Shown here one piece after another: positions 24,654-38,855 of a stretch of DNA of 64,000 bases. Source of the DNA: Escherichia coli (GTDB lineage: Bacteria; Pseudomonadota; Gammaproteobacteria; Enterobacterales; Enterobacteriaceae); NCBI RefSeq assembly GCF_030013205.1, contig NZ_CP122648.1; one strand, given 5' to 3'. Position 1 is the stretch's first letter. Each line of letters begins with the position of its first letter. The translations under genes were made by a program, and so were the position numbers. The notes below the pieces were generated by a model. It made no database searches, had not been told where the DNA came from, and was given only the letters and a program-made list of their open reading frames with translations.

Positions 24654-26231
24654 ATGACGGAAAACATTCATAAGCATCGCATCCTCATTCTGGACTTCGG
24701 TTCTCAGTACACTCAACTGGTTGCGCGCCGCGTGCGTGAACTGGGTGTTTACTGCGAACTGTGGGCGTGGGATGTGACAGAAGCACAAATTCGTGACTTC
24801 AACCCAAGCGGCATTATTCTTTCCGGCGGCCCGGAAAGCACCACCGAAGAAAACAGCCCGCGTGCGCCGCAGTATGTCTTTGAAGCAGGCGTACCGGTAT
24901 TCGGCGTTTGCTATGGCATGCAGACCATGGCAATGCAGTTGGGCGGTCACGTTGAAGCCTCTAACGAACGTGAATTTGGCTACGCGCAGGTTGAAGTCGT
25001 AAACGACAGCGCACTGGTTCGCGGTATCGAAGATGCGCTGACTGCAGACGGTAAACCGCTGCTCGATGTCTGGATGAGCCACGGCGATAAAGTTACCGCT
25101 ATCCCGTCCGACTTCGTCACCGTAGCCAGCACCGAAAGCTGCCCGTTTGCCATTATGGCTAACGAAGAAAAACGCTTCTATGGTGTACAGTTCCATCCGG
25201 AAGTGACTCACACCCGCCAGGGTATGCGCATGCTGGAGCGTTTTGTGCGTGATATCTGCCAGTGTGAAGCCCTGTGGACGCCAGCGAAAATTATCGACGA
25301 CGCCGTAGCTCGCATCCGCGAGCAGGTAGGCGACGATAAAGTGATCCTCGGCCTCTCTGGTGGCGTGGATTCCTCCGTAACCGCAATGCTGCTGCACCGC
25401 GCTATCGGTAAAAACCTGACTTGCGTATTCGTCGACAACGGCCTGCTGCGTCTCAACGAAGCAGAGCAGGTTCTGGATATGTTTGGCGATCACTTTGGTC
25501 TCAATATTGTTCACGTTCCGGCAGAAGATCGCTTCCTGTCAGCGCTGGCTGGCGAAAACGATCCGGAAGCAAAACGTAAAATCATCGGGCGCGTTTTCGT
25601 TGAAGTATTCGATGAAGAAGCGCTGAAACTGGAAGACGTGAAGTGGCTGGCGCAGGGTACTATCTACCCTGACGTTATCGAATCTGCGGCGTCTGCAACC
25701 GGTAAAGCACACGTCATCAAATCTCACCACAACGTGGGCGGCCTGCCGAAAGAGATGAAGATGGGCCTGGTTGAACCGCTGAAAGAGCTGTTCAAAGACG
25801 AAGTGCGTAAGATTGGTCTGGAGCTGGGCCTGCCGTACGACATGCTGTACCGTCATCCGTTCCCGGGACCAGGCCTTGGCGTTCGTGTTCTGGGTGAAGT
25901 GAAGAAAGAGTACTGTGACCTGCTGCGCCGCGCTGACGCCATCTTCATTGAAGAACTGCGTAAAGCGGACCTGTACGACAAAGTCAGCCAGGCGTTCACC
26001 GTCTTCCTGCCAGTACGTTCCGTTGGCGTAATGGGCGATGGTCGTAAGTATGACTGGGTTGTCTCTCTGCGTGCTGTCGAAACCATCGACTTTATGACCG
26101 CACACTGGGCGCATCTGCCGTACGATTTCCTCGGTCGCGTTTCCAACCGCATTATCAATGAAGTGAACGGTATTTCCCGCGTGGTGTATGACATCAGCGG
26201 CAAGCCGCCAGCTACCATTGAGTGGGAATGA
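24654..26231 (+). CDS. guaA: GMP synthase (glutamine-hydrolysing)
   Basis: 525-aa ORF with GATase cysteine (GVCYGMQ) and PP-loop SGGVDSSV; ends ...ATIEWE. Confidence 0.95.
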
Positions 26232-26233
26232 TT
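26217..26233. repeat. attL core (overlaps guaA stop codon)
   Basis: Exact 17-bp match to 55362-55378. Confidence 0.8.
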
Positions 26234-26277
26234 AACAGCTAACTCATAGCAAATCATTCCTATTCAGATGCCAACTC

Positions 26278-26310
26278 AACCCTCTGTTTTTGCAGAGGGT
26301 TTTTGTTTTT
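26278..26310 (+). terminator. phage-supplied terminator replacing the native guaA terminator
   Basis: Stem ccctctg/cagaggg plus T-run; near-copy of the hairpin at 55403-55434. Confidence 0.55.
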
Positions 26311-26423
26311 ATGTATTCATTTCTATTCACTCTACACCATATTTTTCGGCGGTACAGGTGACGGTATTACCTTAAAGGTATACTCTCATACCGTCATGAA
26401 AATGGTTTCTATACGGGTGAATT

Positions 26424-27674
26424 GTGCTTACCGATACAAAATTAAAAAACCTCAAGCCGCAGGACAAACTGTACAAGGTCTCCGATCGTGACGGGCTGTA
26501 TGTAGCTGTGCTTACGTCAGGCACGGTCTCATTTCGTTATGACTACCGTATCAACGGTCGCCGCGAAACACTGGTAATCGGGCAGTATGGGCGTGACGGT
26601 ATCAGCCTGGCAGAAGCGCGGGAAGAACTGATTGCTGCAAAGAAGCTGCTTAAAGCAGGCCAGTCACCGGCTGCGGCTAAACGTGACGGTATCAAAAAGA
26701 TTCGTGGTGCCGAAACGTTTGCGGTACATACCGACAGTTATATGAAACACGTCATCCTGGCTGAAAGTACCCGCGCAATGAAGCAGGCAGTGATCGACCG
26801 TGACATACTTCCGGTTCTTGGCAACAAAATGATGGCTGAAATTACCACATCGATGGTTCGTGATTTGTGTGACCGGATTGTCGAACGCGGTGGCCGGGCA
26901 ACAGCAGTGCAGGCCAGGGAGATCATCAGCAGCGTATACCGTCACGCCAATGACCGTGGTCATGGTTTGTTTAATCCTGCGGCTGACATTAAGCCTTCGT
27001 CTATCGCCATATTTAAACCACGAGAGCGAACACTGACACCAGAAGAAATTGGCCTGTTCTTCCGCACGTTGGATGCCATTGGTGCTATGGGCACTATGAA
27101 AATGGCTTTAAAACTGGTGCTTATCACTATGGTTCGTAAGGGCGAATTCACCAATGCAACGTGGGATGAAATAGATTTTAAAAAATGGACATGGACAATT
27201 CCTTCAGACCGCATGAAGGGAAGCCGGGCGCATGTTATTTACCTGCCTAAACAGGCTCAGGATATATTGGTCGGGTTGCAGATGTGCGCTGGTGGAAGTG
27301 AATATCTGGTTCCTGGTCGTTACAATTTCCGGAAGCCATTATCTAATGCCGCGCTGAACTCTCTGATCGACAGAACGGTGAAAATAATAAATGAAGATGG
27401 TGAGCATATTCAGGATTTCACCGTACACGATATGCGCCGTACAGCCAGTACGTTGTTGCATGAGGCTGGTTATCCTTCAGACTGGATTGAAAAGGCTCTG
27501 GCACATGAGCAGAAAGGTGTGCGCGCCGTATATAACAAAGCGGAATACGCCAGACAGCGCGCCTACATGTTGCAGCAGTGGGCCGATATGATTGATTCCT
27601 GGATTAACGGGGAGCATACGGATCTGATTCCGTTCTCCCCGTCGAAGTTTGAGAAGTGGATGGCGGGGGAATAA
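26424..27674 (+). CDS. int: tyrosine-type site-specific integrase (P4-like, N-terminal DUF4102-type arm-binding domain)
   Basis: 416-aa ORF (GTG start) with LTDTKLKNLKP...YKVSDRDGLYVAV N-terminus and C-terminal catalytic region (HDMRRTASTLL...AYNK); sits next to attL. Confidence 0.9.
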   Translation: MLTDTKLKNLKPQDKLYKVSDRDGLYVAVLTSGTVSFRYDYRINGRRETLVIGQYGRDGISLAEAREELIAAKKLLKAGQSPAAAKRDGIKKIRGAETFAVHTDSYMKHVILAESTRAMKQAVIDRDILPVLGNKMMAEITTSMVRDLCDRIVERGGRATAVQAREIISSVYRHANDRGHGLFNPAADIKPSSIAIFKPRERTLTPEEIGLFFRTLDAIGAMGTMKMALKLVLITMVRKGEFTNATWDEIDFKKWTWTIPSDRMKGSRAHVIYLPKQAQDILVGLQMCAGGSEYLVPGRYNFRKPLSNAALNSLIDRTVKIINEDGEHIQDFTVHDMRRTASTLLHEAGYPSDWIEKALAHEQKGVRAVYNKAEYARQRAYMLQQWADMIDSWINGEHTDLIPFSPSKFEKWMAGE

Positions 27675-27677
27675 CGT

Positions 27678-27872
27678 TTAATTATTCTGCTGATTTTCTT
27701 CCATCTCGGCTTCTGCTGCCAGTGATTCAATTTTATCTGTGAATATTGCTGACAGTGTTGCAAATTCAGCATCAGTGACAGCGGGAATTGGAACAAACCT
27801 GATCCCGCTGTGTGCAAGCATGTTTGCAGTTTCAAGGCATTTCCTTAAATCTGATGGTGATGCCCTGTTCAT
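27678..27872 (-). CDS. small hypothetical phage protein, start overlaps the methyltransferase stop (ATGA)
   Basis: 64-aa ORF MNRASPSDLRK... read within the 27678..27992 track ORF; no recognisable domain. Confidence 0.3.
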   Translation of the reverse strand: MNRASPSDLRKCLETANMLAHSGIRFVPIPAVTDAEFATLSAIFTDKIESLAAEAEMEENQQNN

Positions 27873-28531
27873 GCTGCACGCTCCCGCCCCTGGTTGTCTG
27901 TTGGTGACAGCGGAGCATTGCTGAATGCATTTGTTAATCTGGCAATATCCAACGCGTATCCAGGGTGTAGTTGCACTGCCGGGTCTTCGCACTGATTACC
28001 CCAAACATCGAAACCATGAGACGACTGGCGGGCGAACAGTTCAATGCGAGAAACATCGCCTAACAATTGCACAAGTTTTTCACGAACGATATCTGGTTTT
28101 CTTGAATGCTCAAGCCGCGGTGCGGTAAATGACTGAACGATCCCTGCATTAATGCGCGTAGGTAGTTTTCCCTTTACTGCAAACAGGCAATCTTCACTAT
28201 TGGCGCGAGTCATGTGACCCATACCCATAACCAGTTTATCTGGTTGTCGACTACCACATTTTATCCACGTGAATCCCTTCATGGTCATCAGACGGAATCC
28301 CCAGGCCTCAACAACTTTTAGTGCTTCGAGTGGTTGTGTTGGCACCCACCACATGGCCAACAGACAGTTTTCATCGGCCAAATCCCACACAGGAAGGCGG
28401 CAGATATCCAGCACACTCATAACCGGATATTTAAAACCGGCACCGCGATTACCATCTGCGGCTTTGTCCCGGTATACCCAGGGTGGATCTGCATAGATTA
28501 GTGTGTATTTCTTAGTCATAAACCACCCCAC
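27869..28531 (-). CDS. MT-A70-family DNA N6-adenine methyltransferase (orphan)
   Basis: DPPW catalytic motif (LIYADPPWVY); no adjacent restriction endonuclease gene. Confidence 0.8.
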   Translation of the reverse strand: MGWFMTKKYTLIYADPPWVYRDKAADGNRGAGFKYPVMSVLDICRLPVWDLADENCLLAMWWVPTQPLEALKVVEAWGFRLMTMKGFTWIKCGSRQPDKLVMGMGHMTRANSEDCLFAVKGKLPTRINAGIVQSFTAPRLEHSRKPDIVREKLVQLLGDVSRIELFARQSSHGFDVWGNQCEDPAVQLHPGYALDIARLTNAFSNAPLSPTDNQGRERAA

Positions 28532-28811
28532 AACATCCTATGCCGCTATAGTCGCCACGGCGAAGGCCGTTACCTTTTGTGATACATTGGTCCCTGCGAA
28601 CCGCGATCCTTGCACGCTCAACATCACCAGAAGCAACATCCATACACTGAAGCCAAAGGTGAGCGGCAATGCGGAACTGCCCTTTTTTCTCTCTTTCAAT
28701 CGCGCGTTTTTCGATCTCTATCGCCGCAGGAGTAACGGCGACAATCTTTGACGGACTGCGCATTGAAACCTTGTTCATGTGATATTTTTCAAGTCGGCTT
28801 AACTTTCTCAC
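28512..28811 (-). CDS. hypothetical phage protein
   Basis: 99-aa ORF upstream of and co-oriented with the methyltransferase; no motif recognised. Confidence 0.35.
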   Translation of the reverse strand: MRKLSRLEKYHMNKVSMRSPSKIVAVTPAAIEIEKRAIEREKKGQFRIAAHLWLQCMDVASGDVERARIAVRRDQCITKGNGLRRGDYSGIGCCGVVYD

Positions 28812-28920
28812 TTAATCCAACCCTCTCTGAAAATTAATGCCAGCAGATAAAGCCATGCTGAAACAGAGGCCAGGAATAAGTACCATCCTGACCATTTGCT
28901 CCAGTGCCTTAGCAGCACAC

Positions 28921-29169
28921 TCATGCCGCGTTGCTCACGGGACGATATACACGTTGCTGAACAGGAGGTTTTTTACCCTGGAACTCTGCCGGGCTTGCTG
29001 CCTGACGTTCATCAAGCCAACGCTCAACTTCATCACGGTTCCATGCGCAGCGTTTATCGGTGATATACCAGCGTTTAGGAAATTCCCCTGCGCGCTCCAT
29101 ACGGTCGATAGTGCTCCATGACAGTGGAACCACCGCCAGGAGTTCCTTCTTACCTAATGCACCTTTCAT
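28921..29169 (-). CDS. AlpA/excisionase-like HTH protein
   Basis: 82-aa ORF with HTH-like segment (LSWSTIDRMERAGEFPKRWYI) typical of AlpA/Xis family; located between int and recombination genes. Confidence 0.6.
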   Translation of the reverse strand: MKGALGKKELLAVVPLSWSTIDRMERAGEFPKRWYITDKRCAWNRDEVERWLDERQAASPAEFQGKKPPVQQRVYRPVSNAA

Positions 29170-29218
29170 AAATACCTCTCTTGGTTGCAGTGCGGCGCGC
29201 GTGGCGCCGCGGTGGTGG

Positions 29219-30160
29219 TTACATAGATGTTTCGTTTAATTCTTCCCGACGAACGCTGTAAACGTCGGTGGCTTTTGCCAGCAGTTCGTCATCATCTGAA
29301 AGTTTTTGTGCAATGTATTTGTAAGCCTTATCCAGTTCGGAGACAGTGCTGTAATTCATCGCTGCGCTGGTAAAGGCCATCAGCATTTCTTCTGGATCAC
29401 GGCTGTCCGATTTACGCGTTTGCTCATCAGGCTTTTTCGCTGGTTTAGCGTTGATCAGACTGTTCATTCCCGCAGCAGTGGTCGTTTGCGGAGTAATGTC
29501 TCGCTCAACGCGCGGTGCCGTTTCCTGTAATTCGTCTGGGGTGTAGACGCCCATGATTACGTCAGGACAGTGCAGGCGAGACCAGCGTTTTGTCGCAAGG
29601 TATGCGAGTTGTTGTTTCGGATCACTGGCCCAAAGTGTGGAGTTTCTTACCTGTGCTTGAGACAGCATTAACTCAAGCACTCGAGGTTGATCCTCGCCCT
29701 TCATGGTTGCCCATACGCGAACACCGCAGCCTTCTTCGTCTTTTAGAGTCCAGCCTGGTGCGATATATGGATTGCCGTTTTTGGATGTTTTCTCAACAAA
29801 CTTACCGATCACGCGTTCCCACGGCCCGAACCACTCGTAGTTGATGCGATCTTTTGTTGGCGACATCGTTGAGATAACTGCGTTTACTAATTGGGCTTCA
29901 TAACCTAGCGTGCCGTTCACAACATGGGTTTTCTGAGCCACGGCAAACGGGTTCATTCCCCACTGCGCAGCCTGCATTGCCACGGCCATGCAATCAGCTG
30001 GTTTCCCGGCGAGGTGCGCCGGTACCGTTACGCGGCTTTGCGCCATTACCTCGGCGAATTTCATCAGTTGGTTCAAGCCGTCTGGGCTGAAAATAGTTGC
30101 AGCAGTTCCAGCGATTGCTGTGTCTACTGGTGCGTTGATGTTTGCGATGTCGTTGCTCAT
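29219..30160 (-). CDS. phage single-strand annealing recombinase (RecT/Bet-like)
   Basis: Partner position immediately downstream of an exonuclease gene; start set at MSNDIAN so it abuts the exonuclease stop. Family assignment from general similarity, not a motif. Confidence 0.55.
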   Translation of the reverse strand: MSNDIANINAPVDTAIAGTAATIFSPDGLNQLMKFAEVMAQSRVTVPAHLAGKPADCMAVAMQAAQWGMNPFAVAQKTHVVNGTLGYEAQLVNAVISTMSPTKDRINYEWFGPWERVIGKFVEKTSKNGNPYIAPGWTLKDEEGCGVRVWATMKGEDQPRVLELMLSQAQVRNSTLWASDPKQQLAYLATKRWSRLHCPDVIMGVYTPDELQETAPRVERDITPQTTTAAGMNSLINAKPAKKPDEQTRKSDSRDPEEMLMAFTSAAMNYSTVSELDKAYKYIAQKLSDDDELLAKATDVYSVRREELNETSM

Positions 30161-30978
30161 ATGTACATATCCTGTTTGCGTGCCCACTCAGGGCGTTTAA
30201 TGATTTCCACACCGCCCCATTCATCATTGATGCGGCATTCGTGATAGGTATTCAGATCCCGGCGGAACAGAGCGTGCCCGGCATCGACATCCTGCGCATC
30301 CAGCTCGAACACGCGTACCGGATACCGACCACAATCAATGCTTTCGCTCACGGCAAGAAAGAAAAAACCATGCGGCTGACCAGTAACCCTCATTGCGCCT
30401 TCGCGGTACATTGCGTCCTGCACGTGGTAGCGGAATTCCTCGATGTGGCGTGCAAAACGGTCCATATCTGCAACCTTTTTCACGTCGACGATCACGTTGT
30501 GCTCGTTCAGCCATTTGTCTGGACGAATTCGGCACAACTCCCCCGTCTCTTCATCGTTCCAGTACATTGATGCTTCGCAGTAACCAGGTGCTTCCAGCAT
30601 CCAGCGTGCCGCCGGGTGAGCCATTGCGCTATCACGCATCAGCTCCAGTTTCCGCCACTGCTCGGCATCAAGTACCGTAATCCCCATATCCGCCACATCA
30701 CGAAGAAATTCCTCTTCGTCAGCTTTACCTTGTTTCGTCCGACGATCGAATTTCGGTGAAACAATGAAGCGTTTGTCGAACTCTCCAGGCTCCAGAAGCA
30801 GACAGTGCAATGCGGTTCCCATATCCAGTGCAGACTTTTTCTCTTCGTCTTCTGGTGCTGCCTGAACCCATTTAAGAAGCGCCGGATTCTTGGCAACCAT
30901 GTCCAGTTGCGACTTACTCACGCCGTCACCGGCGTGGTAGTCTTCGTTGCTGATGTCGAAATAAATTCCCGGTTTCAT
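30157..30978 (-). CDS. PD-(D/E)XK-type phage exonuclease (YqaJ/RecE-like)
   Basis: 273-aa ORF with acidic/lysine residues in an IVDVKK context consistent with PD-(D/E)XK nucleases; upstream partner of the annealing protein. Confidence 0.65.
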   Translation of the reverse strand: MKPGIYFDISNEDYHAGDGVSKSQLDMVAKNPALLKWVQAAPEDEEKKSALDMGTALHCLLLEPGEFDKRFIVSPKFDRRTKQGKADEEEFLRDVADMGITVLDAEQWRKLELMRDSAMAHPAARWMLEAPGYCEASMYWNDEETGELCRIRPDKWLNEHNVIVDVKKVADMDRFARHIEEFRYHVQDAMYREGAMRVTGQPHGFFFLAVSESIDCGRYPVRVFELDAQDVDAGHALFRRDLNTYHECRINDEWGGVEIIKRPEWARKQDMYI

Positions 30979-31289
30979 GCCGCGTCCCTCTGCCCATCAA
31001 GCTGATCAGCCAGATCCCAGCGGGCGATAATTGCCATTGCCTCGCGCCGGTAGGCATCCATTAGTTCTTCGAACTCAGGGCTGTCTTTAGCGGCCTCCAG
31101 TACTTCCTGGCGAACGCCTTTAACTGTTACAACGTCGAAAGTTGATGCCAGTTGATGAAGCCGGATACTCTCAATCAGTTCAACTTGTCGGTCATATAGC
31201 TGTTCTGACAGACGGTAGTCCTTGTCGAATGCCAGCATGATTTTTTGAAGATTTTTCTGCTGATTAACGTTCATTATCAGCCCTCCCAT
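30975..31289 (-). CDS. hypothetical early phage protein
   Basis: 104-aa ORF in the leftward early operon. Confidence 0.4.
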   Translation of the reverse strand: MGGLIMNVNQQKNLQKIMLAFDKDYRLSEQLYDRQVELIESIRLHQLASTFDVVTVKGVRQEVLEAAKDSPEFEELMDAYRREAMAIIARWDLADQLDGQRDAA

Positions 31290-31582
31290 ATCTCGTTATC
31301 GTTGGCCACATCGCGAGCTTCTTTGCTGACGAAAGCCCACTTAATGCCTTCCTGTAAGGTGCGGAACTTCCAGCTCATGAATCCGCATGCAGTAACGCAG
31401 TACCAACCGTTGATGATTTTCCACTGCATAACTTGTTACCTCGGTCTGTTACCGTTGAGGTAATAATTATGCGTATATGGTTTGATGTCAATAGATATGA
31501 GTTAAAAAAATTACCCGTTAGGTAATCGAATAGGCAATAAAAAAGCCGCCATAAGGCGGCTTACTTACTGAAAAATATGGTT

Positions 31583-32167
31583 TTATTGTTTGTTTTTTTC
31601 GTTCTGGTTGATGACAAATTCAATGTAACTTTCGATCTTTGCTTTCTCGGTTTCGGGTAACAATGCGTAGCGCGAGCGATCATAGTTGATGGTCGCAGGG
31701 TCGTGCGGGTGAATCAGTAATTCATAGCCGTGACGCCCGAATGCGGATGCAACATTCTCCAGGGTGGAAATGGAAACGCTGACCTCATTGTTTAACAGGC
31801 GGCTGATTGTCACCTGGGCTACGCCGGATGCGCGGTGAAGTTTTCCCTGTGTTGAAAGGTCGCGGCTTTCGCTCATCCAGCGTTCCAGGTTGTGAGCCGC
31901 CAGCTGGCCAATGTCGCTTGGGCCGACAGGCTGAAAACCTTCCTGAGAAAGCGAGCGATCGATATCAAGCCAGTTACGGGGTTTATTGGCGGCAGCTTCA
32001 ATTTTTCGTGCAACCTGGTCGCCGATAACCTTCTTGCCAAGAGCCCAGCGGTTTACCAGATTTGCCTGAGTTCCAAGTTTTTCAGCCATCCGCGTCTGAA
32101 CACCATTGAATTCACGGTCGATCAAGTCGTTGAGATTTTGCCTGCGGACGTCCTGGATACTTTTCAT
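31583..32167 (-). CDS. prophage repressor with two HTH domains and no peptidase domain
   Basis: N-terminal XRE-like HTH (TRMAEKLGTQANLVNRWALGKK) and second HTH-like segment (GVAQVTISRLLNNE); divergent from a cro-like gene with operator-like palindromes between them. Confidence 0.65.
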   Translation of the reverse strand: MKSIQDVRRQNLNDLIDREFNGVQTRMAEKLGTQANLVNRWALGKKVIGDQVARKIEAAANKPRNWLDIDRSLSQEGFQPVGPSDIGQLAAHNLERWMSESRDLSTQGKLHRASGVAQVTISRLLNNEVSVSISTLENVASAFGRHGYELLIHPHDPATINYDRSRYALLPETEKAKIESYIEFVINQNEKNKQ

Positions 32168-32221
32168 TTTCTGGAAAATCGCCTCATATATGAATCAGTA
32201 GATGATTCAATTTAAAGCAAT

Positions 32222-32286
32222 ATTACCCAACAGGTAAATGCACCTCATAGGTAACTATCCTTGATTTTTGTTACCTTATGGGTGAA
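32222..32286. promoter_or_regulatory. immunity-region operator cluster (three ATTACC-N5-GGTAAT-like sites)
   Basis: Sites at 32222-32238, ~32240-32255 and 32270-32286 in the repressor/cro intergenic region; OR1-3-like layout. Confidence 0.5.
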
Positions 32287-32321
32287 TATTTATTATCTGA
32301 AATAAATATCAGGCAATAGCT

Positions 32322-32552
32322 ATGAGCGATAACGGACATTTCGATTTCAAAAAGCACTGGCTTGCACTTACTCCGGATGAGCGTGAAGCCTTCGCACAGG
32401 AAGCCGGAACGACGAGTCACTATATCCAGACTCACTTAACAGGTAAGCGCAAAATGCCAGGTAAAGTATTGATGAATGGGCTTTTTAAAGCCTGTAAAAC
32501 AAGACAATGGCTGCGCTCAAAAGCAGAACTGGCATACTTCTTCTACTCATGA
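32322..32552 (+). CDS. Cro-like small DNA-binding protein
   Basis: 76-aa ORF divergent from the repressor; first gene of the rightward early operon. Confidence 0.5.
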   Translation: MSDNGHFDFKKHWLALTPDEREAFAQEAGTTSHYIQTHLTGKRKMPGKVLMNGLFKACKTRQWLRSKAELAYFFYS

Positions 32553-32702
32553 TATCCAGCTACAACCCTCTGTAGACCGCCACCCGGCGGTCTTTTCATA
32601 TCTATTCGTACCTCAAAGGTAATAAATAACCAAATCTGGTTGATCTTTTTTTTGTGTCAGCACAAAATGACCGTAATCCCAATACTAATAACAGGGCTTA
32701 CC

Positions 32703-32903
32703 ATGGAAATCATTACACGTATTGATGCCGCAAAGCGCGGACTTAAACGCTACTACACCGGAAAACCATGCAAGCACGGACATGACAGTGAACGCTGGGT
32801 TTACAACGGACACTGTGTTGAGTGCACCATGGAATCAAACCGTCGTATCAGGGCAGAGATTAAGCAGATCATGATTAATTCCTCCCCACAACATTCAAGC
32901 TGA
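32703..32903 (+). CDS. small Cys/His-rich phage protein
   Basis: 66-aa ORF (MEIITRIDAAKRG...) with CKHGH...CVEC; preceded by an operator-like site at 32608-32623. Confidence 0.4.
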   Translation: MEIITRIDAAKRGLKRYYTGKPCKHGHDSERWVYNGHCVECTMESNRRIRAEIKQIMINSSPQHSS

Positions 32904-32918
32904 TAGCGGAGATTAATC

Positions 32919-33752
32919 ATGAGCAGACATGCAACAGATTGGGCCTGGGAGACAGATCCAGGTAGCTCGTCATTAAAGCTCATACTGCTCTCGATGGCTG
33001 ACAGAGCCGATGAATATAACCTCTGCTACCCCAGCATAGAACGCCTCGTTAAAGACACTTGCCTGAATAAAAAAACCGTGCAGGCCGGGCTTATATCGCT
33101 CATGAAAATGGGGCTTATTTCAGATACCGGAGAGAGAAAGGGAGCGACGAAAAGAGTGCGGGTTTTCTCTCTTAATATAACCAAAAACGGGAACATTAAA
33201 GGCAACCGGGAAGGGGGTAATGGACCCGAAAACGGTAATGTTACCGAAAACGGTAATGTTACCGAAAACGGGAATATACCCAAAAACGGGATGTTGAATG
33301 ATCCCAAAAACGGGATGTTGAATGATCCCAAAAACGGGATCCAGAACCAGTCATATAACCAGTCATTTAACCAAGAGAGGGAGAGCAGGACAAAAAGCGG
33401 GGATTCTGTGCCTCATGACCCCGGCGCAAACAACGCCGTGATGAATAACTTTGTTCCTCCTGGTGGGCCAGGGCAATTAGGCAAATTTGTCATGCATGAA
33501 CAATGGCAGCCATCAGATGACTTTCTTCGGAAAAGCTCATTGCAGGGGATCTACCTGGACAGTCTGCCAACGGCACAGGAACTTGCAGAGTTCAGAATTT
33601 ACTGGATGGCTGAGGGTAAGGCATACCATCAGGCACAGTGGGAGCAGAAGCTGGCAAGGCGGCTGCAGATTAGCAGACAGAAGCAATCAACATTACCTGA
33701 TAACAACGTTCCGCACTGGAACAGCCCTGAAGCATGGGAGGATTTCTTGTGA
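32919..33752 (+). CDS. replication initiator (lambda O-like) with in-gene iterons
   Basis: N-terminal winged-helix-like region (LKLILLSMADRADEYNLCYPSIERL), internal DNA iterons, immediately upstream of a P-like gene. Confidence 0.6.
   Translation: MSRHATDWAWETDPGSSSLKLILLSMADRADEYNLCYPSIERLVKDTCLNKKTVQAGLISLMKMGLISDTGERKGATKRVRVFSLNITKNGNIKGNREGGNGPENGNVTENGNVTENGNIPKNGMLNDPKNGMLNDPKNGIQNQSYNQSFNQERESRTKSGDSVPHDPGANNAVMNNFVPPGGPGQLGKFVMHEQWQPSDDFLRKSSLQGIYLDSLPTAQELAEFRIYWMAEGKAYHQAQWEQKLARRLQISRQKQSTLPDNNVPHWNSPEAWEDFL
33226..33345. repeat. iteron array (3 x 18 bp + 3 x 24 bp) inside the O-like gene; candidate ori
   Basis: gaaaacggtaatgttacc repeats followed by cccaaaaacgggatgttgaatgat repeats; encodes GNVTEN/GMLNDPKN peptide repeats. 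Confidence 0.6.
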
Positions 33753-34534
33753 ACAACGTTTTTACCGCGATACAAAACCGTGACGGAGAAGCCCTTTCTC
33801 GCATGTCAGGTTATGAGCATCAGTACGTCAACAATGACAATGTGGTGAACATGTCAGCAGAGAGGCTTGTTGATGCCCTTTTTAAACAGCTGAAACAACT
33901 GTTTCCGGCGGCAGTGGTAACCAACCTGAAGACGCCAGAGCAGGAAGTTGCTGCAAAACAGCAGTGGATTGCTGCGTTTGCCGAAGGGGGGATCCGAACC
34001 CGTGAACAGGTTTCTGCTGGTATGCGCCACGCCCGCGCCAGTGAGTCTCCGTTCTGGCCGTCGCCAGGGCAATTCATCAAGTGGTGTAAAGACAGCAAGA
34101 TGGTTCTTGGCGTCACCATTGACGATGTGATGGCGGAGTTTCACCGGTACAGCAAGGAAAAAAGTTTATATCCTGGTGGTCCCGAAAGATTCCCGTGGCG
34201 ACATCCGGTTATGTACTGGGTCGTATGTGATACCCGCCGTGCAATGTATCAGCGCCAGCTTAGCGAGATTGAGGTTGAGAAACACGCGCGCAGGCTGCTC
34301 GATGATTGGGCGAAAAAGGTGGCTTCCGGACAGCAGATACCCGATCCGGTGATCAGCATACAGGCAAAGCCAGAGCCCATGAGTACGCCTCCGGACACAG
34401 GGAGAGACGTTTACCATCCACCAGGGCGAAGTTTCGGGTGTATGCCTAACGCCGCCACCCTGGGGGGAATAACACCGGCGCAGTGGCTGATAGAGGAATA
34501 CAGGCGGGGAAAGGCGGCAGGATTTATCAAGTAA
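33734..34534 (+). CDS. replication protein P-like (helicase loader)
   Basis: Segment REQVSAGMRHARASESPFWPSPGQFIKWCKD closely parallels the recalled lambda P segment MEQVNAGMRVARRQNRPFLPSPGQFVAWCRE. Confidence 0.75.
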   Translation: MGGFLVNNVFTAIQNRDGEALSRMSGYEHQYVNNDNVVNMSAERLVDALFKQLKQLFPAAVVTNLKTPEQEVAAKQQWIAAFAEGGIRTREQVSAGMRHARASESPFWPSPGQFIKWCKDSKMVLGVTIDDVMAEFHRYSKEKSLYPGGPERFPWRHPVMYWVVCDTRRAMYQRQLSEIEVEKHARRLLDDWAKKVASGQQIPDPVISIQAKPEPMSTPPDTGRDVYHPPGRSFGCMPNAATLGGITPAQWLIEEYRRGKAAGFIK

Positions 34535-34651
34535 TACCAGCGCGATAGCGCATTTTTTTACGTCTCAATAATTACCCATCGGGTAACAAAACATTCTAAA
34601 CTCTATTGATTTCGTGTCTTATGTGGTTTTTAATTACCTTAGAGGTAAATC

Positions 34652-34996
34652 ATGAGAAAACAGATACAGGCTCTTGGTCGACTCAAAACAGGCCAGATGA
34701 ACAAAACAGAATCTGCGTATTGCCAGCACCTTGAGCAGCGTAAACGTGCAGGGGAAATCGCCTGGTATCGATTCGAGGGTATCAAGCTGCGGTTAGCTGA
34801 CAACACGTTCTATACGCCCGATTTTGCTGTGATGCTCGCCACCGGCGAGATGGAACTGCACGAAGTGAAAGGTTTCTGGACCGACGACGCCAGGGTGAAA
34901 ACCAAAGTCGCCGCAGATCAGTATCCGTTCCGAATCATCGGGGTAACGGTTAAGCCAAAGAAAGCAGGTGGTGGCTGGAACATCGAAGAGTTCTGA
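34652..34996 (+). CDS. hypothetical phage protein (DUF1064-like)
   Basis: 114-aa ORF preceded by two operator-like sites (34571-34587, 34633-34649). Confidence 0.4.
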   Translation: MRKQIQALGRLKTGQMNKTESAYCQHLEQRKRAGEIAWYRFEGIKLRLADNTFYTPDFAVMLATGEMELHEVKGFWTDDARVKTKVAADQYPFRIIGVTVKPKKAGGGWNIEEF

Positions 34997-35057
34997 ATCG
35001 ACGATCTTTTTAGTTATCAATGTAATCAATAAGTTATGTGGATAAGCGAGGGTAAAG

Positions 35058-35447
35058 ATGGAAAGTAATATCAAAGGGTTAGTTGCCGCCGGGCATGAGA
35101 TGGCTTCGGAACTGAAAGCAGAATGTGGTGCCGTTGATATGCGTAGTGTGGCAAAACTGATCAGCGATTTGGCAACGCAACTGGAAGTGCAACTGGTGCG
35201 TGCTAATGCGCTGGCAGCGGAGAATGCAAAGCTGAAGGATTACCTGGCCCCTATAGGGCTGAAGGTTGAAGGGACTCCAACCACCGACGCTGTCCTGGCT
35301 GAAATTGAACGCAAAGCAATCCGCAAGTTCATTAACAGCATTGAACACATCCTGCGTGACAAGTTATCACCGTATGACACCGAAGAGATGCTTGAGGCTA
35401 TGCGTATTTTTCTGGAAGAACAGGGAGGTGAGCAAAAATGGCAATAA
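35058..35447 (+). CDS. hypothetical phage protein (coiled-coil)
   Basis: 129-aa ORF in the nin-like region. Confidence 0.4.
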   Translation: MESNIKGLVAAGHEMASELKAECGAVDMRSVAKLISDLATQLEVQLVRANALAAENAKLKDYLAPIGLKVEGTPTTDAVLAEIERKAIRKFINSIEHILRDKLSPYDTEEMLEAMRIFLEEQGGEQKWQ

Positions 35448-35755
35448 CAAAGCAACGTGTAGAAGAAATCATATCCCGTATTGAAATGTATGGGCATGGC
35501 GCAGGGTATACAGTCGAAGAGGTTTATGACCTTGCTGTACTGGCGCTGAATTTATCAAATATCGCAAAACTCAAGCGATACGAGCTTGATATGGATGGTT
35601 GTGACTCGTTCGGTCAGGATTGTGGCGCTGACATGACTGAAGATTCTGATGGCGATTATGTCCTGTTTGATGACGTGGTTAAGTTGTTTGAGTTTGATAC
35701 AACCACTCAGAAGTTAGAAAGCACAGCAAAGGAGGCAGCCAGTGAGCGAGATTGA
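35438..35755 (+). CDS. hypothetical phage protein
   Basis: 105-aa ORF overlapping its neighbours' ends. Confidence 0.4.
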   Translation: MAITKQRVEEIISRIEMYGHGAGYTVEEVYDLAVLALNLSNIAKLKRYELDMDGCDSFGQDCGADMTEDSDGDYVLFDDVVKLFEFDTTTQKLESTAKEAASERD

Positions 35756-36317
35756 CTATCAGGCACTGCGTGACAAGGCAGAGAAAGCAACGTGTGGTGA
35801 GTGGTCGATCGAATATGGAGATGGCAGCTTTGATGGTGATGATGCACTAATTCATCGCGAGGCTGCTGGATATATTCCCATTTGCAGAATTGAAGGAGCG
35901 CATCCTGAAAGCGGTTTCGATGAAGATTTCCAAATGGAACAGCAGGCCAATGCTGAATTCATCGCTGCAGCCAATCCGGCTACCGTCTTGGCGCTGCTTG
36001 GCGAGCTGGAAGCAGCAAAAAAGCGCATAGCAGAACTGGAAGCCGAACTCGTAAGCCAAACTTACAAGTTGAACGAGCTATCGGGCAACTCTCCGGTAAC
36101 TCCGGATGGTTGGATAAGCTGTAGTGAGCGAATGCCGGATAGCAAAACAGCCGTTCTTGTTGCCAGGGAGTTTGACAGGAAAGGTGACTGGCGAATGAAA
36201 TGGGCGACTTACATCCCTGGGCATCCTGACGCTAATGATGGGTGGATAATTCCTGGTGCGTCGTGGATACCATCACACTGGATGCAACTACCAGAACCGC
36301 CGCAGGAGGCGAAATGA
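35742..36317 (+). CDS. Ead/Ea22-like protein with DUF551-like C-terminus
   Basis: Motif ANAEFIAAANPATVLALLGELEAAKKRIAELE and C-terminal W-rich domain typical of lambdoid Ea22-like proteins (from memory). Confidence 0.55.
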   Translation: MSEIDYQALRDKAEKATCGEWSIEYGDGSFDGDDALIHREAAGYIPICRIEGAHPESGFDEDFQMEQQANAEFIAAANPATVLALLGELEAAKKRIAELEAELVSQTYKLNELSGNSPVTPDGWISCSERMPDSKTAVLVAREFDRKGDWRMKWATYIPGHPDANDGWIIPGASWIPSHWMQLPEPPQEAK

Positions 36318-36407
36318 TGGACTATTCACAGTTAAGTGATTTTGAAATTAACAGAAGAGGCGAAATGATGGACTATTCACAGTTAAGTGATTTTGAAATT
36401 AACAGAA
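36306..36407. repeat. exact 51-bp tandem duplication spanning a stop/start junction
   Basis: gaggcgaaatgatggactattcacagttaagtgattttgaaattaacagaa occurs at 36306-36356 and 36357-36407. Confidence 0.9.
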
Positions 36408-36718
36408 TGGTAGGAGACATAATTTTTAAAGGCCTTTGGGCGTGTAAACCGGAAACATCAGGGAATAACACCAACAAATGGTATTACGGAAATACTGATA
36501 CAACTTTTGAGCCATTAAACCCTTTACCTGACTACTGCAATAATCCATCGGATGCATGGCCTATTATTGTTGATAATAAAATCAGTCTAACCTGCCACCA
36601 CTCTCGCGGTGAGTGGTCAGCAGTTTTTAATGCCGACAACATTTGCTTTCATGCGAATAATCCACTCCGAGCCGCCATGATTGTATTTCTCATGATGCAG
36701 GAAAATCAGAATGGCTAA
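36314..36718 (+). CDS. hypothetical phage protein carrying a 17-aa N-terminal duplication
   Basis: ORF begins MMDYSQLSDFEINRRGE-MMDYSQLSDFEINRM; start overlaps the upstream stop (ATGA). Confidence 0.45.
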   Translation: MMDYSQLSDFEINRRGEMMDYSQLSDFEINRMVGDIIFKGLWACKPETSGNNTNKWYYGNTDTTFEPLNPLPDYCNNPSDAWPIIVDNKISLTCHHSRGEWSAVFNADNICFHANNPLRAAMIVFLMMQENQNG

Positions 36719-37115
36719 ATCAGCAGCAGAGCGCAAAGCCGCTCAGAGAGCCAGACAAGCTGCATCTGGCGTGCGTAAGCTGGAAATTGTGCTTGATGCT
36801 CAGGAAATTGAAATGCTGGAGCGTAACTGTGCCACGCGTCGCCCCGGGCGTGCGCCTTACGAATTTGGTGAGTATATAGCGTTACTGATCCGCCAGGATG
36901 ATGCACGCGTGCGCGGGCGTATAAAATCGATCAGCAGAAAACGTTGCGGTAAGTGCGGCGAGATAGTTCCTGTGAATTCATGCCCGTGTACCGTACCCAT
37001 TACAAATGGGACAACGGACTTGCTCTGCGTGACTGGCGTTATGTTGTTCGCATTGCAAACATCGATGTCAGCAATCTTTCAGAACCTTCCTCTGCCGCAA
37101 ATATTGCGAAGTTGA
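36711..37115 (+). CDS. hypothetical basic protein; possible gene remnant at a deletion junction
   Basis: 134-aa ORF whose 3' part overlaps the next ORF in another frame. Confidence 0.3.
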   Translation: MAKSAAERKAAQRARQAASGVRKLEIVLDAQEIEMLERNCATRRPGRAPYEFGEYIALLIRQDDARVRGRIKSISRKRCGKCGEIVPVNSCPCTVPITNGTTDLLCVTGVMLFALQTSMSAIFQNLPLPQILRS

Positions 37116-37333
37116 TGGTTAAAGCACTGCATCGCATTCCAAATCGTGGCATGGGTCGCCCGGTGTTCTACATGAACCGCACTGTAGGCCAGGCTCTTGA
37201 TCTGCAATCTCTGGAGAAAACATCTCTGGCGATCAGCGTAAAAGAGACAGAAGGCGAGTGGTGGACTTCATTCCGTGGTGTACCAATCCGTGAAACTGAT
37301 GCGCTTCTGGAAACAGAAGCCCGCGTGGTGTAA
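36953..37333 (+). pseudogene. possible 3' remnant of a head/structural gene
   Basis: 126-aa ORF with no proper 5' context and an overlapping upstream ORF; no terminase or portal gene precedes it. Confidence 0.3.
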
Positions 37334-37384
37334 CGCCTGTTATTAACCTGTGGGTCGTAACAGACCCACTAATGGAGAAAGAAG

Positions 37385-37753
37385 ATGATCACCGACAAAC
37401 TGTTGATGTTCTCCGAAGCTCAGGCGGTTACGAATACCGCGGCTTCTACTGACGTAATCGATCTCGGTCCAATTGACGGAAAACGTCGTGATATCGGCGT
37501 GGGTTACCCGCTTGAGTTTTGGGCGCTGGTTAACACAGCCGCCGCGGCAAGCGGTGATGCAACTGTAAACATCCAGTTGCAGGCGAGTGAGAATAACAGC
37601 TCATGGACCACTATTTATGATAGTGGCGCACTGGCAAAGACCGCCCTGACAGCAGGTAAACGAGTTGTTTCTGCAAAGGTGCCTGCCGGTGTTCAGCGAT
37701 ATCTGCGTGTTAACTACTCCGTCGCAACTGGCCCACCGGGACAATTACGTTAA
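37385..37753 (+). CDS. hypothetical virion-associated protein
   Basis: 122-aa ORF with RBS-like gagaaagaag upstream. Confidence 0.4.
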   Translation: MITDKLLMFSEAQAVTNTAASTDVIDLGPIDGKRRDIGVGYPLEFWALVNTAAAASGDATVNIQLQASENNSSWTTIYDSGALAKTALTAGKRVVSAKVPAGVQRYLRVNYSVATGPPGQLR

Positions 37754-37794
37754 CGGCAAGCGCCTCTATTTTTGGCGCGGAGCAGGTAGGCAAA

Positions 37795-38391
37795 TTGTTC
37801 TATCTGGAACAGCCTGCAGTGGATTCTGTGCCGGTAACCAGCAATACCGCTGTAGTGGTTCGTGCCAACAGGAACGTCCCGCCATCCCTCAGGAATACGG
37901 CCACCACGAACTGGCAGATGGCGCGCCGGACATTTGGAGGCCTGTCTCATCTTGAAGGCCAGACCGTAAACATTCTCTCTGATGCGAGCGTGGAACCACA
38001 GAAAGTGGTTTCCGGAGGTGCCGTCACGCTGGAATCTCCGGGGGCTGTAGTGCACATCGGCCTGCCAATAACTGCTGAATTCGAAACACTGGATATCAAC
38101 ATTAACGGACAGGAAACGCTGCTGGACAAAAAACAGGTGATCCCCTCCGTTACTCTGGTTGTGAATGCCAGTCGCGGCATCTGGGCGACTACGCCTGGCG
38201 GTAAATGGTACGAATATCCACAGCGTGAATTCGAGTTCTACGATGATCCTGTTGATGATGCTACCGGAAAAGTAGAAGTGAAACTGGACAGTAACTGGGG
38301 CAAAAACGGACGTGTAAAAATCCGTCAGCTTGATCCGTTGCCGCTGTCTGTTCTTGCCGTTATTCCTCGCCTTACTGTTGGGGGATTTTGA
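37795..38391 (+). CDS. hypothetical structural protein
   Basis: 198-aa ORF in the structural cluster. Confidence 0.4.
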   Translation: MFYLEQPAVDSVPVTSNTAVVVRANRNVPPSLRNTATTNWQMARRTFGGLSHLEGQTVNILSDASVEPQKVVSGGAVTLESPGAVVHIGLPITAEFETLDININGQETLLDKKQVIPSVTLVVNASRGIWATTPGGKWYEYPQREFEFYDDPVDDATGKVEVKLDSNWGKNGRVKIRQLDPLPLSVLAVIPRLTVGGF

Positions 38392-38855
38392 TGATCGACG
38401 TTAAAATTATTCCCGCTACCGAAGAGCATCTTCAGATGATTTTGCCGGATGTTCGTCAGGCTGATATTGACGAACTGTATGCGGTATCGCTGATGACTAC
38501 CGAAGATGCGCTGCGTGTTGGTCTGCGCACTGCGACTATGGCCTGGTCAGGGTTCGCGAACGGAGAACTGGTAACCATGTTTGGTGTATCTCCGGCGTCA
38601 ATGATCGGTGGCAATGGTACGCCTTGGCTGGTAGGAACCAGCCGTATTGAAAAATATCAGAAGACATTTCTTCGCCACTGCCGACCTGTATTGCAGCAGA
38701 TGCTGGCAGTTTATCCGCGCCTGGAAAACTACGTCGACGAGCGAAACCATGTTGCCAAAGCATGGCTGCACTGGCTTGGATTCAGGCTTGAAGAAGCCGC
38801 GCCTTATGGTGCTCTTGGTCTTAATTTCCACAGATTTCACATGGAGAGAAAATAA
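38388..38855 (+). CDS. hypothetical virion protein
   Basis: 155-aa ORF, stop/start overlap with neighbours. Confidence 0.4.
   Translation: MMIDVKIIPATEEHLQMILPDVRQADIDELYAVSLMTTEDALRVGLRTATMAWSGFANGELVTMFGVSPASMIGGNGTPWLVGTSRIEKYQKTFLRHCRPVLQQMLAVYPRLENYVDERNHVAKAWLHWLGFRLEEAAPYGALGLNFHRFHMERK

What the first reader, a model, noticed from the sequence alone, without database searches (positions are those of the whole stretch)
31583..32167. Repressor with two HTH domains and no autocleavage domain
The 194-aa repressor shows two XRE-like HTH segments (residues ~20-45 and ~125-150) and nothing resembling an S24 peptidase Ala-Gly/Ser-Lys module, unlike lambda CI. This implies SOS-independent or antirepressor-mediated control.
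Basis: inference. Interest (0 to 1): 0.45.

Follow-up and report, generated by a model that had tools for sequence, protein, structure and literature searches.

The report
Known phiV10/SPC32H-type repressor with antirepressor switch
This is the already described immunity repressor of phiV10/epsilon15-like prophages; it is not cut during DNA damage but is most likely pulled off the DNA by a small antirepressor whose gene is held silent by the host LexA protein, so the finding is correct but ordinary.

Summary
The 194-aa ORF at 31583-32167 (-) is real. It has two XRE-type helix-turn-helix segments (residues 24-43 and 107-125) and no S24 peptidase module.

It is not new. The protein is 100% identical to the phiV10 gp40 and vB_EcoP_ZX5 ORF21 repressors. 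The phiV10 record already notes "two helix-turn-helix motifs". It is a full-length 42%-identical homologue of Salmonella phage SPC32H Rep, solved alone and bound to its antirepressor Ant (PDB 5D4Z, 5D50).

By that homology it has three modules:
- an N-terminal DNA-binding HTH;
- a middle HTH-like dimerisation domain;

The rest of the SPC32H switch is in the window:
- an Ant gene (50145-50402, 88% identical to SPC32H Ant);
- a near-consensus LexA box 20 bp upstream of it (50422-50441);
- nine perfect TTACC-N5-GGTAA operators (0.04 expected) at syntenic promoters.

It is very probably SOS-dependent through LexA, not SOS-independent.

A second Ant-domain protein, a Bro-N fusion behind isrK and C4 RNAs, lies nearby. 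The prophage sits at guaA and has lost its packaging genes.

The parts
31583..32167 (-). rep: 194-aa immunity repressor (stop codon included)
   Evidence: ORF. 100% identical to phiV10 gp40 and ZX5 ORF21. E 4e-42 to PDB 5D50 chain A over residues 1-190.
31958..32167 (-). Residues 1-70: N-terminal DNA-binding domain; HTH proper is residues 24-43 (nt 32039-32098)
   Evidence: PHROG repressor families hit residues 1-76. AF2 helices at 24-31 and 35-43. The recognition-helix motif NLVNRW is shared with SPC32H Rep. This domain is 54% identical to SPC32H.
31712..31915 (-). Residues 85-152: second XRE/HTH_3-like domain; HTH-like helices at 107-125 (nt 31793-31849). Corresponds to the middle dimerisation domain of SPC32H Rep
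   Evidence: Pfam HTH_3 at 106-147, E 4.9e-5. Homologous to PDB 5D4Z, E 4e-20. Foldseek TM 0.79 to 5D4Z, followed by XRE proteins. Role taken from PMC9986798.
31586..31711 (-). Residues 153-194: C-terminal tail, equivalent to the SPC32H Rep tetramerisation and Ant-binding domain (CAD)
   Evidence: Aligned to 5D50/5D4Z up to residue 190. 47% identical to SPC32H against 32% for the middle domain. Y162, L170 and F184 are invariant in 25 homologues. Role taken from PMC9986798.
31543..31562 (-). Intrinsic terminator after rep
   Evidence: Stem of 8 bp followed by a T run. The phiV10 record annotates a terminator at the syntenic position.
31449..31525 (.). Leftward operator region: TTACC-N5-GGTAA sites at 31449-31463 and 31511-31525. 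They flank a promoter-like site (TTGACA-17-AATTAT, 31463-31491, minus strand) that faces the early-left operon
   Evidence: The epsilon15 record annotates the same ATTACC-N5-GGTAAT motif at the syntenic place as 'repressor, lysogeny' binding sites.
32223..32285 (.). rep-cro intergenic operators: 32223-32237 (perfect), 32240-32254 (2 mismatches), 32271-32285 (1 mismatch). The last overlaps the -35 of a rightward promoter-like site at 32268-32296
   Evidence: SPC32H has three sites with the same spacing (17 and 29 bp) in its rep-cro gap.
32322..32552 (+). Divergent Cro-like gene (76 aa)
   Evidence: phrog_35 'transcriptional repressor', E 5.6e-13. Syntenic with phiV10p41 and epsilon15 gp39.
50145..50402 (-). 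ant: 85-aa antirepressor
   Evidence: 88% identical to SPC32H Ant. E 1.3e-47 to PDB 5D50 chain E.
50422..50441 (.). LexA box AACTGTATATTTATACAGTA, 20 bp upstream of the ant start codon
   Evidence: 18/20 match to the consensus, unique in the window, 0 expected. Conserved in position in SPC32H, phiV10, Tyrion, BUCT554 and epsilon15.
50479..50493 (.). Rep operator in the ant/tailspike divergent promoter region
   Evidence: Present at the same offset from the LexA box in 6 of 7 loci; the seventh, phiV10, has a one-mismatch version (GGTGA). Annotated as a repressor site in epsilon15.
48307..48999 (-). Bro-N protein with an Ant-like C-terminal domain (residues 149-225): candidate second antirepressor
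   Evidence: Pfam Bro-N at 16-106, E 4e-13. The C-terminus is 42% identical to the small Ant, E 7e-16, and gives E 9e-14 to 5D50 chain E. The aligned C-terminal ~130 residues show no differences from ZX5 ORF4, which was tested by overexpression (PMC9782041).
49048..49230 (-). C4 antisense RNA (49048-49135) and isrK RNA (49154-49230), directly upstream of the Bro-N/Ant gene on the same strand
   Evidence: Rfam scores of 78.6 and 74.7 bits, both above the gathering thresholds. The same pair is found in ZX5 and is absent from SPC32H.
49267..49374 (.). Two Rep operators (49267-49281 and 49360-49374) upstream of isrK and of the divergent ORF at 49395
   Evidence: Minus-strand promoter-like sites abut the 49267 operator, but their number is at chance level.
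26217..55378 (.). The prophage that carries the switch, bounded by 17-bp att cores ATTGAGTGGGAATGATT at 26217 and 55362, at the 3' end of guaA
   Evidence: The att core sequence and the guaA site are given in PMC9782041. guaA lies just upstream in a near-identical genome.

Best explanation
The ORF is the immunity repressor (Rep) of a phiV10/epsilon15-type (Uetakevirus) prophage integrated at guaA. It works like SPC32H Rep.

1. The N-terminal HTH reads 15-bp TTACC-N5-GGTAA palindromes. These sit on the early-left and early-right promoters and on about ten other intergenic promoters of the prophage.
2. The middle HTH-like domain and the C-terminal tail assemble Rep into dimers and tetramers, which are needed for tight binding.
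3. Rep has no protease domain and is not cleaved.
4. Host LexA sits on a box just upstream of the small ant gene. DNA damage removes LexA and Ant is made.
5. Ant binds the C-terminal part of Rep, breaks up the DNA-bound tetramer, and the lytic promoters fire.

Shown here:
- sequence identity with studied proteins;
- the domain layout and the absence of S24;
- the presence and conservation of Ant, the LexA box and the operator motif.

Inferred by homology or from the literature:
- tetramerisation;
- binding of Ant to the C-terminal tail;
- LexA occupancy of the box;
- absence of Rep cleavage.
For: Identity with studied proteins:
- 100% identical to the phiV10, ZX5 and O157 typing-phage repressors.
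- Overexpressing the identical ZX5 ORF21 abolished free phage and cut endolysin and holin transcripts by more than 99.9% (PMC9782041).
- Full-length homology to SPC32H Rep in PDB 5D50 and 5D4Z, E 4e-42. Foldseek ranks these first.

No autocleavage module:
- No S24 in this protein or in 86 relatives.

Antirepressor and its control:
- Ant homologue at 88% identity, E 1e-47 to 5D50 chain E.
- Ant and Rep co-occur in 35 of 36 phage records out of 50,697 searched.
- LexA box matches 18/20 with 0 expected and is positionally conserved in five of six other phages examined.

Operators:
- Nine perfect TTACC-N5-GGTAA sites against 0.04 expected, all inside the prophage and intergenic.
- SPC32H has ten such sites at syntenic positions.
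- The epsilon15 GenBank record annotates them as repressor-binding sites.

Literature:
- Rep binds DNA as a tetramer and the Ant tetramer disrupts it (PMC9638917).
- The architecture is DBD, middle dimerisation domain, and C-terminal tetramerisation/Ant-binding domain (PMC9986798).
- LexA-controlled Ant is cited for Kim & Ryu 2013 (PMC7380047).
- phiV10-species prophages are induced by a DNA-damaging microcin.
Against: - The mechanistic work was done on a protein only 42% identical (32% in the middle domain, 47% in the tail). No Rep-Ant binding, LexA binding or operator footprint exists for this E. coli protein.
- The two primary SPC32H papers (J Virol 2013, PNAS 2016) were not readable here. 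Their content is taken from citing papers and from my own recollection of the abstracts.
- No consensus sigma-70 promoter was detected for ant at the scan threshold.
- The antirepressor tested in ZX5 was the Bro-N protein, not the small Ant.
- This particular prophage lacks its packaging genes, so the switch may have no lytic outcome in this strain.
Confidence: 0.85

Rival explanations
1. Rep is controlled without any SOS input. Induction is spontaneous, or driven only by the C4/isrK-regulated Bro-N antirepressor or by superinfection, and the LexA-like box upstream of ant is not used.
For: - ZX5 lysogens, which carry the identical Rep, release about 1e7 PFU/mL spontaneously, and the ZX5 paper does not mention LexA.
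- A second Ant-domain protein under RNA control exists in this prophage.
Against: - The LexA box matches 18/20 with none expected by chance. It is conserved in position across phages whose Reps are only 42-78% identical.
- Uetakevirus phiV10-type prophages are induced by a DNA-damaging microcin.
- The SPC32H precedent applies.
Confidence: 0.08
2. Both HTH domains bind DNA. The second HTH (107-125) is a second DNA reader, which would make Rep a tandem-HTH repressor that recognises composite operators.
For: - The second domain scores as HTH_3 and LacI-type HTH at E about 5e-5.
- Q118 is nearly invariant and R123 invariant in its 'recognition' helix among 25 homologues.
- The N- and C-domain profiles align in register over helix 1 to helix 3, E 4.7e-4.
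Against: - In the solved orthologue this domain is described as the dimerisation domain, and the N-terminal domain as the DNA binder (PMC9986798; PMC9638917).
- Only one palindromic motif type is over-represented in the prophage.
- The hhalign probability is only 32%.
Confidence: 0.1
3. The protein is a HigA/VapI-type antitoxin or a generic XRE regulator rather than the prophage immunity repressor.
For: - One phage record annotates the identical protein as 'plasmid maintenance system antidote protein VapI' (H13).
- There is a weak NCBIfam HigA hit, 18.7 bits.
Against: - The HigA score is far below the 47.7-bit cut-off.
- No toxin ORF is adjacent. The gene sits in the classical divergent rep/cro position.
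- Overexpression of the identical protein blocks lytic growth.
Confidence: 0.02

Closest known systems
Salmonella phage SPC32H Rep / Ant / LexA switch (Kim & Ryu 2013; Kim et al. 2016; PDB 5D4Z, 5D50)
   Same: - Full-length homologue (42% identity, E 4e-42) of the same length, with the same three-module layout and no S24.
- Same operator half-sites, TTACC-N5-GGTAA, at syntenic promoters.
- Ant is 88% identical, sits in the same place next to the tailspike gene, and has a LexA box and one operator at the same offsets.
   Different: - The Rep sequence has diverged, most in the middle domain (32% identity).
- The E. coli lineage carries an extra isrK-C4-Bro-N/Ant module that SPC32H lacks.
- No biochemistry has been done on this protein.
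phiV10 gp40, vB_EcoP_ZX5 ORF21 and O157 typing phage 9/10 repressors
   Same: - Identical amino-acid sequence.
- The phiV10 record already notes 'two helix-turn-helix motifs (PF01381)'.
- ZX5 ORF21 was shown by overexpression to block the lytic cycle.
   Different: The copy here sits in a deleted prophage of a swine ETEC strain. Otherwise there is no difference.
Lambda CI, P22 C2 and LexA (S24 autocleaving repressors)
   Same: - N-terminal XRE-type HTH that binds palindromic operators.
- Divergent repressor/cro layout.
- Induction linked to the SOS response.
   Different: - No S24 domain, no Ala-Gly site and no Ser/Lys dyad.
- The SOS signal is relayed through LexA and an antirepressor rather than through RecA-stimulated self-cleavage.
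Other LexA-controlled antirepressor switches (coliphage 186 Tum/CI; Gifsy GfoA/GfoR; N15 AntC) and the P1/P7 immI c4-icd-ant module
   Same: - The logic is the same: a non-cleavable repressor is inactivated by a small protein whose gene is repressed by LexA (PMC7380047).
- The second module here has a C4 antisense RNA upstream of an antirepressor gene, as in P1/P7 (the P1 role of C4 is from general knowledge).
   Different: - These antirepressors and repressors are unrelated in sequence to Rep and Ant.
- According to citing papers, SPC32H-type Ant binds the repressor's C-terminal oligomerisation domain. My recollection of the Kim et al. 2016 abstract is that Ant does not compete for Rep's DNA-binding surface.

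Membership tests
SPC32H-type Rep (Uetakevirus immunity repressor) | Full-length sequence homology to SPC32H Rep (PDB 5D50 chain A) | tested here: met
   E 4e-42 with residues 1-190 aligned to 2-197. Foldseek ranks 5D50 and 5D4Z first.
SPC32H-type Rep (Uetakevirus immunity repressor) | N-terminal HTH DNA-binding domain, then a middle domain, then a C-terminal tetramerisation/Ant-binding tail, with no protease domain | tested here: met
   Pfam and PHROG hits. AF2 secondary structure. Alignment of 25 homologues. The reference architecture comes from PMC9986798.
SPC32H-type Rep (Uetakevirus immunity repressor) | A cognate small Ant encoded in the same genome | tested here: met
   Gene at 50145-50402, 88% identical to SPC32H Ant. 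Rep and Ant co-occur in 35 of 36 phage records.
SPC32H-type Rep (Uetakevirus immunity repressor) | LexA box at the ant promoter | tested here: met
   AACTGTATATTTATACAGTA at 50422-50441, 18/20 match. Position conserved. LexA binding itself was not tested.
SPC32H-type Rep (Uetakevirus immunity repressor) | ATTACC-N5-GGTAAT operators at the early promoters and the ant promoter | tested here: met
   Nine perfect sites against 0.04 expected. Syntenic with SPC32H. Matches the repressor sites annotated in epsilon15.
SPC32H-type Rep (Uetakevirus immunity repressor) | Tetramer binds DNA; Ant tetramer binds the Rep C-terminal domain and releases it; Rep is not cleaved on SOS | not testable with these tools
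   Needs biochemistry or a multimer structure prediction. The structure tool used here models a single chain only.
S24 autocleaving repressors (lambda CI / LexA type) | Peptidase_S24 C-terminal domain with a Ser/Lys dyad | tested here: not met
   No S24 hit in Pfam-A, and none in 86 homologues. The C-terminal half is all-helical in the model.
S24 autocleaving repressors (lambda CI / LexA type) | Ala-Gly (or Cys-Gly) cleavage site in the linker | tested here: not met
   No AG or CG dipeptide anywhere in the 194 residues.
XRE / HTH_3 (Cro/C1-type) DNA-binding domain | Match to Pfam PF01381 or related profiles | tested here: met
   Residues 106-147, E 4.9e-5. The N-terminal copy is only E 0.14 in Pfam, but E 1e-10 to 1e-11 against PHROG repressor families.
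HigA/VapI antitoxin | Score above the NCBIfam TIGR02607 cut-off, and an adjacent toxin gene | tested here: not met
   18.7 bits against a 47.7-bit cut-off. No toxin-like ORF is adjacent.

The most novel reading that the evidence does not exclude
In the E. coli (phiV10/ZX5) branch, the same non-cleavable Rep may take input from two antirepressors that share one Ant domain.

- The first is the LexA-controlled 85-aa Ant.
- The second is a Bro-N::Ant fusion transcribed behind isrK and C4 RNAs and flanked by Rep operators, an arrangement like P1 immI.

The switch would then integrate SOS with an RNA-gated or superinfection signal. Even a packaging-defective prophage like this one could induce resident Uetakeviruses in trans, or be induced by them.
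Probability: 0.35. Interest if true: 0.35.

Novelty: already known. Interest (0 to 1): 0.12.

Why it matters
It matters little as a discovery. The exact protein is in GenBank as the phiV10 repressor, with its two HTH motifs already noted. Its repressor function was tested in phage ZX5. The structure and the antirepressor/LexA mechanism were solved for the Salmonella orthologue.

The useful outcomes are corrections:
- The second HTH-like domain is most likely an oligomerisation module.
- There is a third, Ant-binding tail.
- Induction should be SOS-dependent through LexA and Ant, without RecA-stimulated cleavage of Rep.

A modest open point is whether the second, RNA-controlled Bro-N/Ant protein acts on the same repressor.

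Tried and rejected
- **Primary SPC32H papers.** I tried to read them (DOI 10.1073/pnas.1602618113, PMC4983836, PMC3807360). None is held, so mechanistic statements rest on citing papers and on my memory of the abstracts.
- **S24 autocleavage.** Rejected.
- **HigA antitoxin, RstR and TreR (NCBIfam).** All are far below their cut-offs.
- **A LexA box at rep itself.** None found. The only other CTGT-N8-ACAG in the window (37348) is GC-rich, lies in a capsid gene, and two such matches are within chance.
- **Tandem duplication of the two HTH domains.** hhalign gives an in-register alignment but only 32% probability. This is suggestive, not established.
- **Consensus promoter scan.** The counts do not exceed shuffled controls, so promoter assignments are positional inferences only.
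- **tRNA genes in the window.** None.

Full report
**Observation**

The minus-strand ORF at 31583-32167 exists, starts with ATG and encodes 194 aa.

- **No S24 module.** Pfam-A finds no Peptidase_S24 domain. The sequence has no Ala-Gly or Cys-Gly dipeptide. None of 86 database relatives, nearly all 190-200 aa long, carries S24.
- **C-terminal HTH.** Pfam gives HTH_3 at 106-147 (E 4.9e-5), LacI-type HTH at 112-148 (E 5.8e-5) and HTH_26 at 104-144 (E 1e-4).
- **N-terminal HTH.** Pfam is weak here: HTH_3 at 24-67 (E 0.14) and YdaS at 21-61 (E 0.005). PHROG repressor families are clear: phrog_5736 at 4-76 (E 2.8e-11), phrog_12107 at 1-75 (E 4e-10) and phrog_2328 at 24-67 (E 6e-7).
- **Structure model.** An AlphaFold2 model built on 25 homologues (mean pLDDT 75.9) has helices at 4-19, 24-31, 35-43 and 50-59. 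A disordered linker covers 72-82. Helices follow at 85-100, 107-114, 118-125, 133-141 and 147-151. A low-confidence stretch at 157-164, a short helix at 164-168 and a long helix at 172-193 complete the chain.

The two helix-turn-helix motifs are therefore residues 24-43 and 107-125.

A profile-profile comparison aligns the N-domain with the second domain in register (9-48 against 91-131, E 4.7e-4, probability 32%). This is compatible with an old duplication but does not prove one.

**What it is**

The protein is 100% identical to the annotated repressors of Escherichia phages phiV10 (gp40), vB_EcoP_ZX5 (ORF21), phiv142-3, PAS61 and O157 typing phages 9 and 10. It is 75-78% identical to those of Enterobacter phages Tyrion and BUCT554. 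It is about 42-45% identical to those of Klebsiella Uetakeviruses, epsilon15, SPN1S and SPC32H.

Against the PDB, the whole protein matches SPC32H Rep in the Rep-Ant complex 5D50 (E 4e-42, residues 1-190). Its C-terminal half matches 5D4Z (E 4e-20). Foldseek on the model returns these entries first, then XRE-family proteins such as NHTF, SinR, HigA, ClgR and DdrO.

About 10% of complete E. coli genomes (563 of 5426) carry this region.

**Context**

The window holds a phiV10-like prophage between two copies of the att core ATTGAGTGGGAATGATT, at 26217 and 55362. This is the attP/attB core reported for phiV10, epsilon15 and ZX5 at the 3' end of guaA (PMC9782041). guaA lies immediately upstream in a near-identical genome.

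rep sits in the classical position:
- A terminator follows it at 31543-31562.
- The early-left operon lies beyond the terminator. It includes the RecT and exonuclease genes.
- A Cro-like gene lies on the other side of rep at 32322-32552 (phrog_35, E 5.6e-13), followed by replication genes.

**Operators**

The palindrome TTACC-N5-GGTAA occurs nine times in the window against 0.04 expected (a tenth match, at 33241, has a 6-bp spacer and lies inside the 32919-33752 ORF). All nine are inside the prophage and intergenic: 31449, 31511, 32223, 34572, 34634, 48226, 49267, 49360 and 50479.

One-mismatch copies add 26367 (upstream of int), 32271, 32608 and 53335 (upstream of the lysis genes).

- The pair at 31449 and 31511 flanks a leftward TTGACA-17-AATTAT promoter-like site.
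- The sites at 32223, 32240 and 32271 fill the rep-cro gap. The last overlaps the -35 of a rightward promoter-like site.

SPC32H has ten copies of the same motif at the syntenic places. They include three in its rep-cro gap with the same spacing, and three downstream of rep. The epsilon15 GenBank record annotates exactly these ATTACC-N5-GGTAAT sequences as "repressor, lysogeny" binding sites.

The putative recognition helix, NLVNRW, is shared between this protein and SPC32H Rep. This fits the shared half-site.

**The inactivation route**

tblastn with SPC32H Ant finds an 85-aa ORF at 50145-50402 on the minus strand. It is 88% identical to SPC32H Ant and gives E 1.3e-47 to 5D50 chain E. It lies divergent from the tailspike gene, as in SPC32H.

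Twenty base pairs upstream of its ATG lies AACTGTATATTTATACAGTA (50422-50441). It matches the LexA consensus at 18 of 20 positions, is the only such site in the window, and none is expected by chance.

I compared the ant upstream regions of the window, SPC32H, phiV10, Tyrion, BUCT554, epsilon15 and a Klebsiella phage:
- The LexA box is at the same offset in six of the seven. In the Klebsiella phage it is one base off.
- A Rep operator lies about 54 bp further upstream in six of the seven; in phiV10 it carries one mismatch (GGTGA).

Among 50,697 phage records, all 35 that encode Ant also encode Rep. 35 of the 36 with a full-length Rep encode Ant.

**Mechanism, with its basis**

- Rep of SPC32H binds DNA as a tetramer. 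The DNA-binding pairs come from different dimers. The Ant tetramer binds two Rep dimers and breaks the tetramer (PMC9638917 citing Kim et al. 2016).
- The architecture is an N-terminal DBD, a middle dimerisation domain, and a C-terminal tetramerisation domain that also binds Ant (PMC9986798).
- Ant synthesis follows LexA self-cleavage (PMC7380047 citing Kim & Ryu 2013).
- Mapping this onto the present protein gives DBD 1-70, middle domain 85-152 (the second "HTH") and tail 153-194.
- Identity to SPC32H Rep is 54%, 32% and 47% for these three parts. The DNA-reading and Ant-binding parts are thus the better conserved, in line with the shared operator and the 88%-identical Ant.
- Function of the identical protein has been tested. 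Overexpressing ZX5 ORF21 removed free phage and reduced endolysin and holin transcripts by more than 99.9% (PMC9782041).
- phiV10-species prophages are induced 21- to 47-fold by a DNA-damaging microcin (bioRxiv 10.64898/2026.05.26.727859).

Not shown for this protein are tetramerisation, Ant binding, LexA occupancy and lack of cleavage. I could not read the two primary SPC32H papers.

The inference "antirepressor-mediated" is right. The alternative "SOS-independent" is very probably wrong, because the system is cleavage-independent but wired to SOS through LexA.

"Two HTH domains" is right as a description of fold. It should not be read as two DNA-binding domains. By homology the second is an oligomerisation module, and a third C-terminal module is the antirepressor's target.

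**A second module, seen in passing**

A 230-aa Bro-N protein is encoded at 48307-48999 on the minus strand (Pfam Bro-N, E 4e-13).

- Its C-terminal residues 149-225 are 42% identical to the small Ant (E 7e-16) and match 5D50 chain E at E 9e-14.
- Directly upstream on the same strand, Rfam finds a C4 antisense RNA (49048-49135, 78.6 bits) and isrK (49154-49230, 74.7 bits).
- Two Rep operators (49267 and 49360) lie just upstream of these RNAs.
- ZX5 has the same isrK-C4-Bro-N arrangement, and SPC32H does not.
- ZX5 ORF4 shows no differences from this protein over the aligned C-terminal ~130 residues. It is the "anti-repressor" whose overexpression lowered lysogen counts about 1000-fold.

The E. 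coli branch may therefore feed two Ant-domain proteins into one repressor. This is untested.

**Novelty**

The finding is already known. The protein, its two-HTH annotation, its repressor role, the operator motif and the antirepressor/LexA logic are all on record.

Noticed in passing
window 48307-49374: A P1 immI-like module. isrK (49154-49230) and C4 antisense RNA (49048-49135) lie directly upstream, on the same strand, of a Bro-N protein gene (48307-48999). That protein's C-terminal 77 residues are homologous to the SPC32H-type Ant. Rep operators lie at 49267 and 49360. The same layout is found in phage ZX5 and is absent from SPC32H.
   Followed up: partly
window 26217-55378: The prophage is about 29 kb, against 39 kb for phiV10. 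phiV10 coordinates 1-6905 (terminase, portal, protease, start of the capsid gene), 7652-9587 and 9689-10977 are missing, with clean junctions near 36990, 37735 and 37835. It is probably packaging-defective. Only one of 5426 complete E. coli genomes (swine strain ETEC4079, NZ_CP122643.1) has these junctions.
   Followed up: partly
window 26367, 32608, 34572, 34634, 48226, 53335: Operator-like TTACC-N5-GGTAA sites, perfect or with one mismatch, also sit upstream of int, after the cro terminator, before the DUF1064 gene, after the Bro-N gene and before the lysis genes. This suggests Rep touches many more promoters than a lambda-type repressor does.
   Followed up: partly
L002 (phiV10 NC_007804.2) 19551-20230: The Bro-N protein of the phiV10 reference (p23) diverges and ends inside the Ant-like domain, compared with the window and ZX5 proteins. 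The small ORF p22 covers the remainder. This is an apparent frameshift or sequencing error in the reference.
   Followed up: partly
window 49395-50123 (+): A 242-aa ORF sits between the two antirepressor genes. It matches phrog_6762 (unknown function), has an N-terminal hydrophobic segment and two C-terminal Cys-rich repeats that hit endonuclease VII, HNH and Lar-like families. A Rep operator lies just upstream.
   Followed up: no
window 29219-30978 (-): RecT (322 aa) and the PD-(D/E)XK exonuclease (273 aa) are separate overlapping ORFs here. The phiV10 reference annotates a single RecE-RecT fusion protein (p37).
   Followed up: no
window 33200-33340 (+): The DnaT-like replication protein (32919-33752) contains short tandem peptide repeats (NGNVTE x2, PKNGMLND x2) in an Asn/Gly-rich linker. 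The region varies in length among E. coli genomes: the best full-length matches differ by about 18 bp.
   Followed up: no
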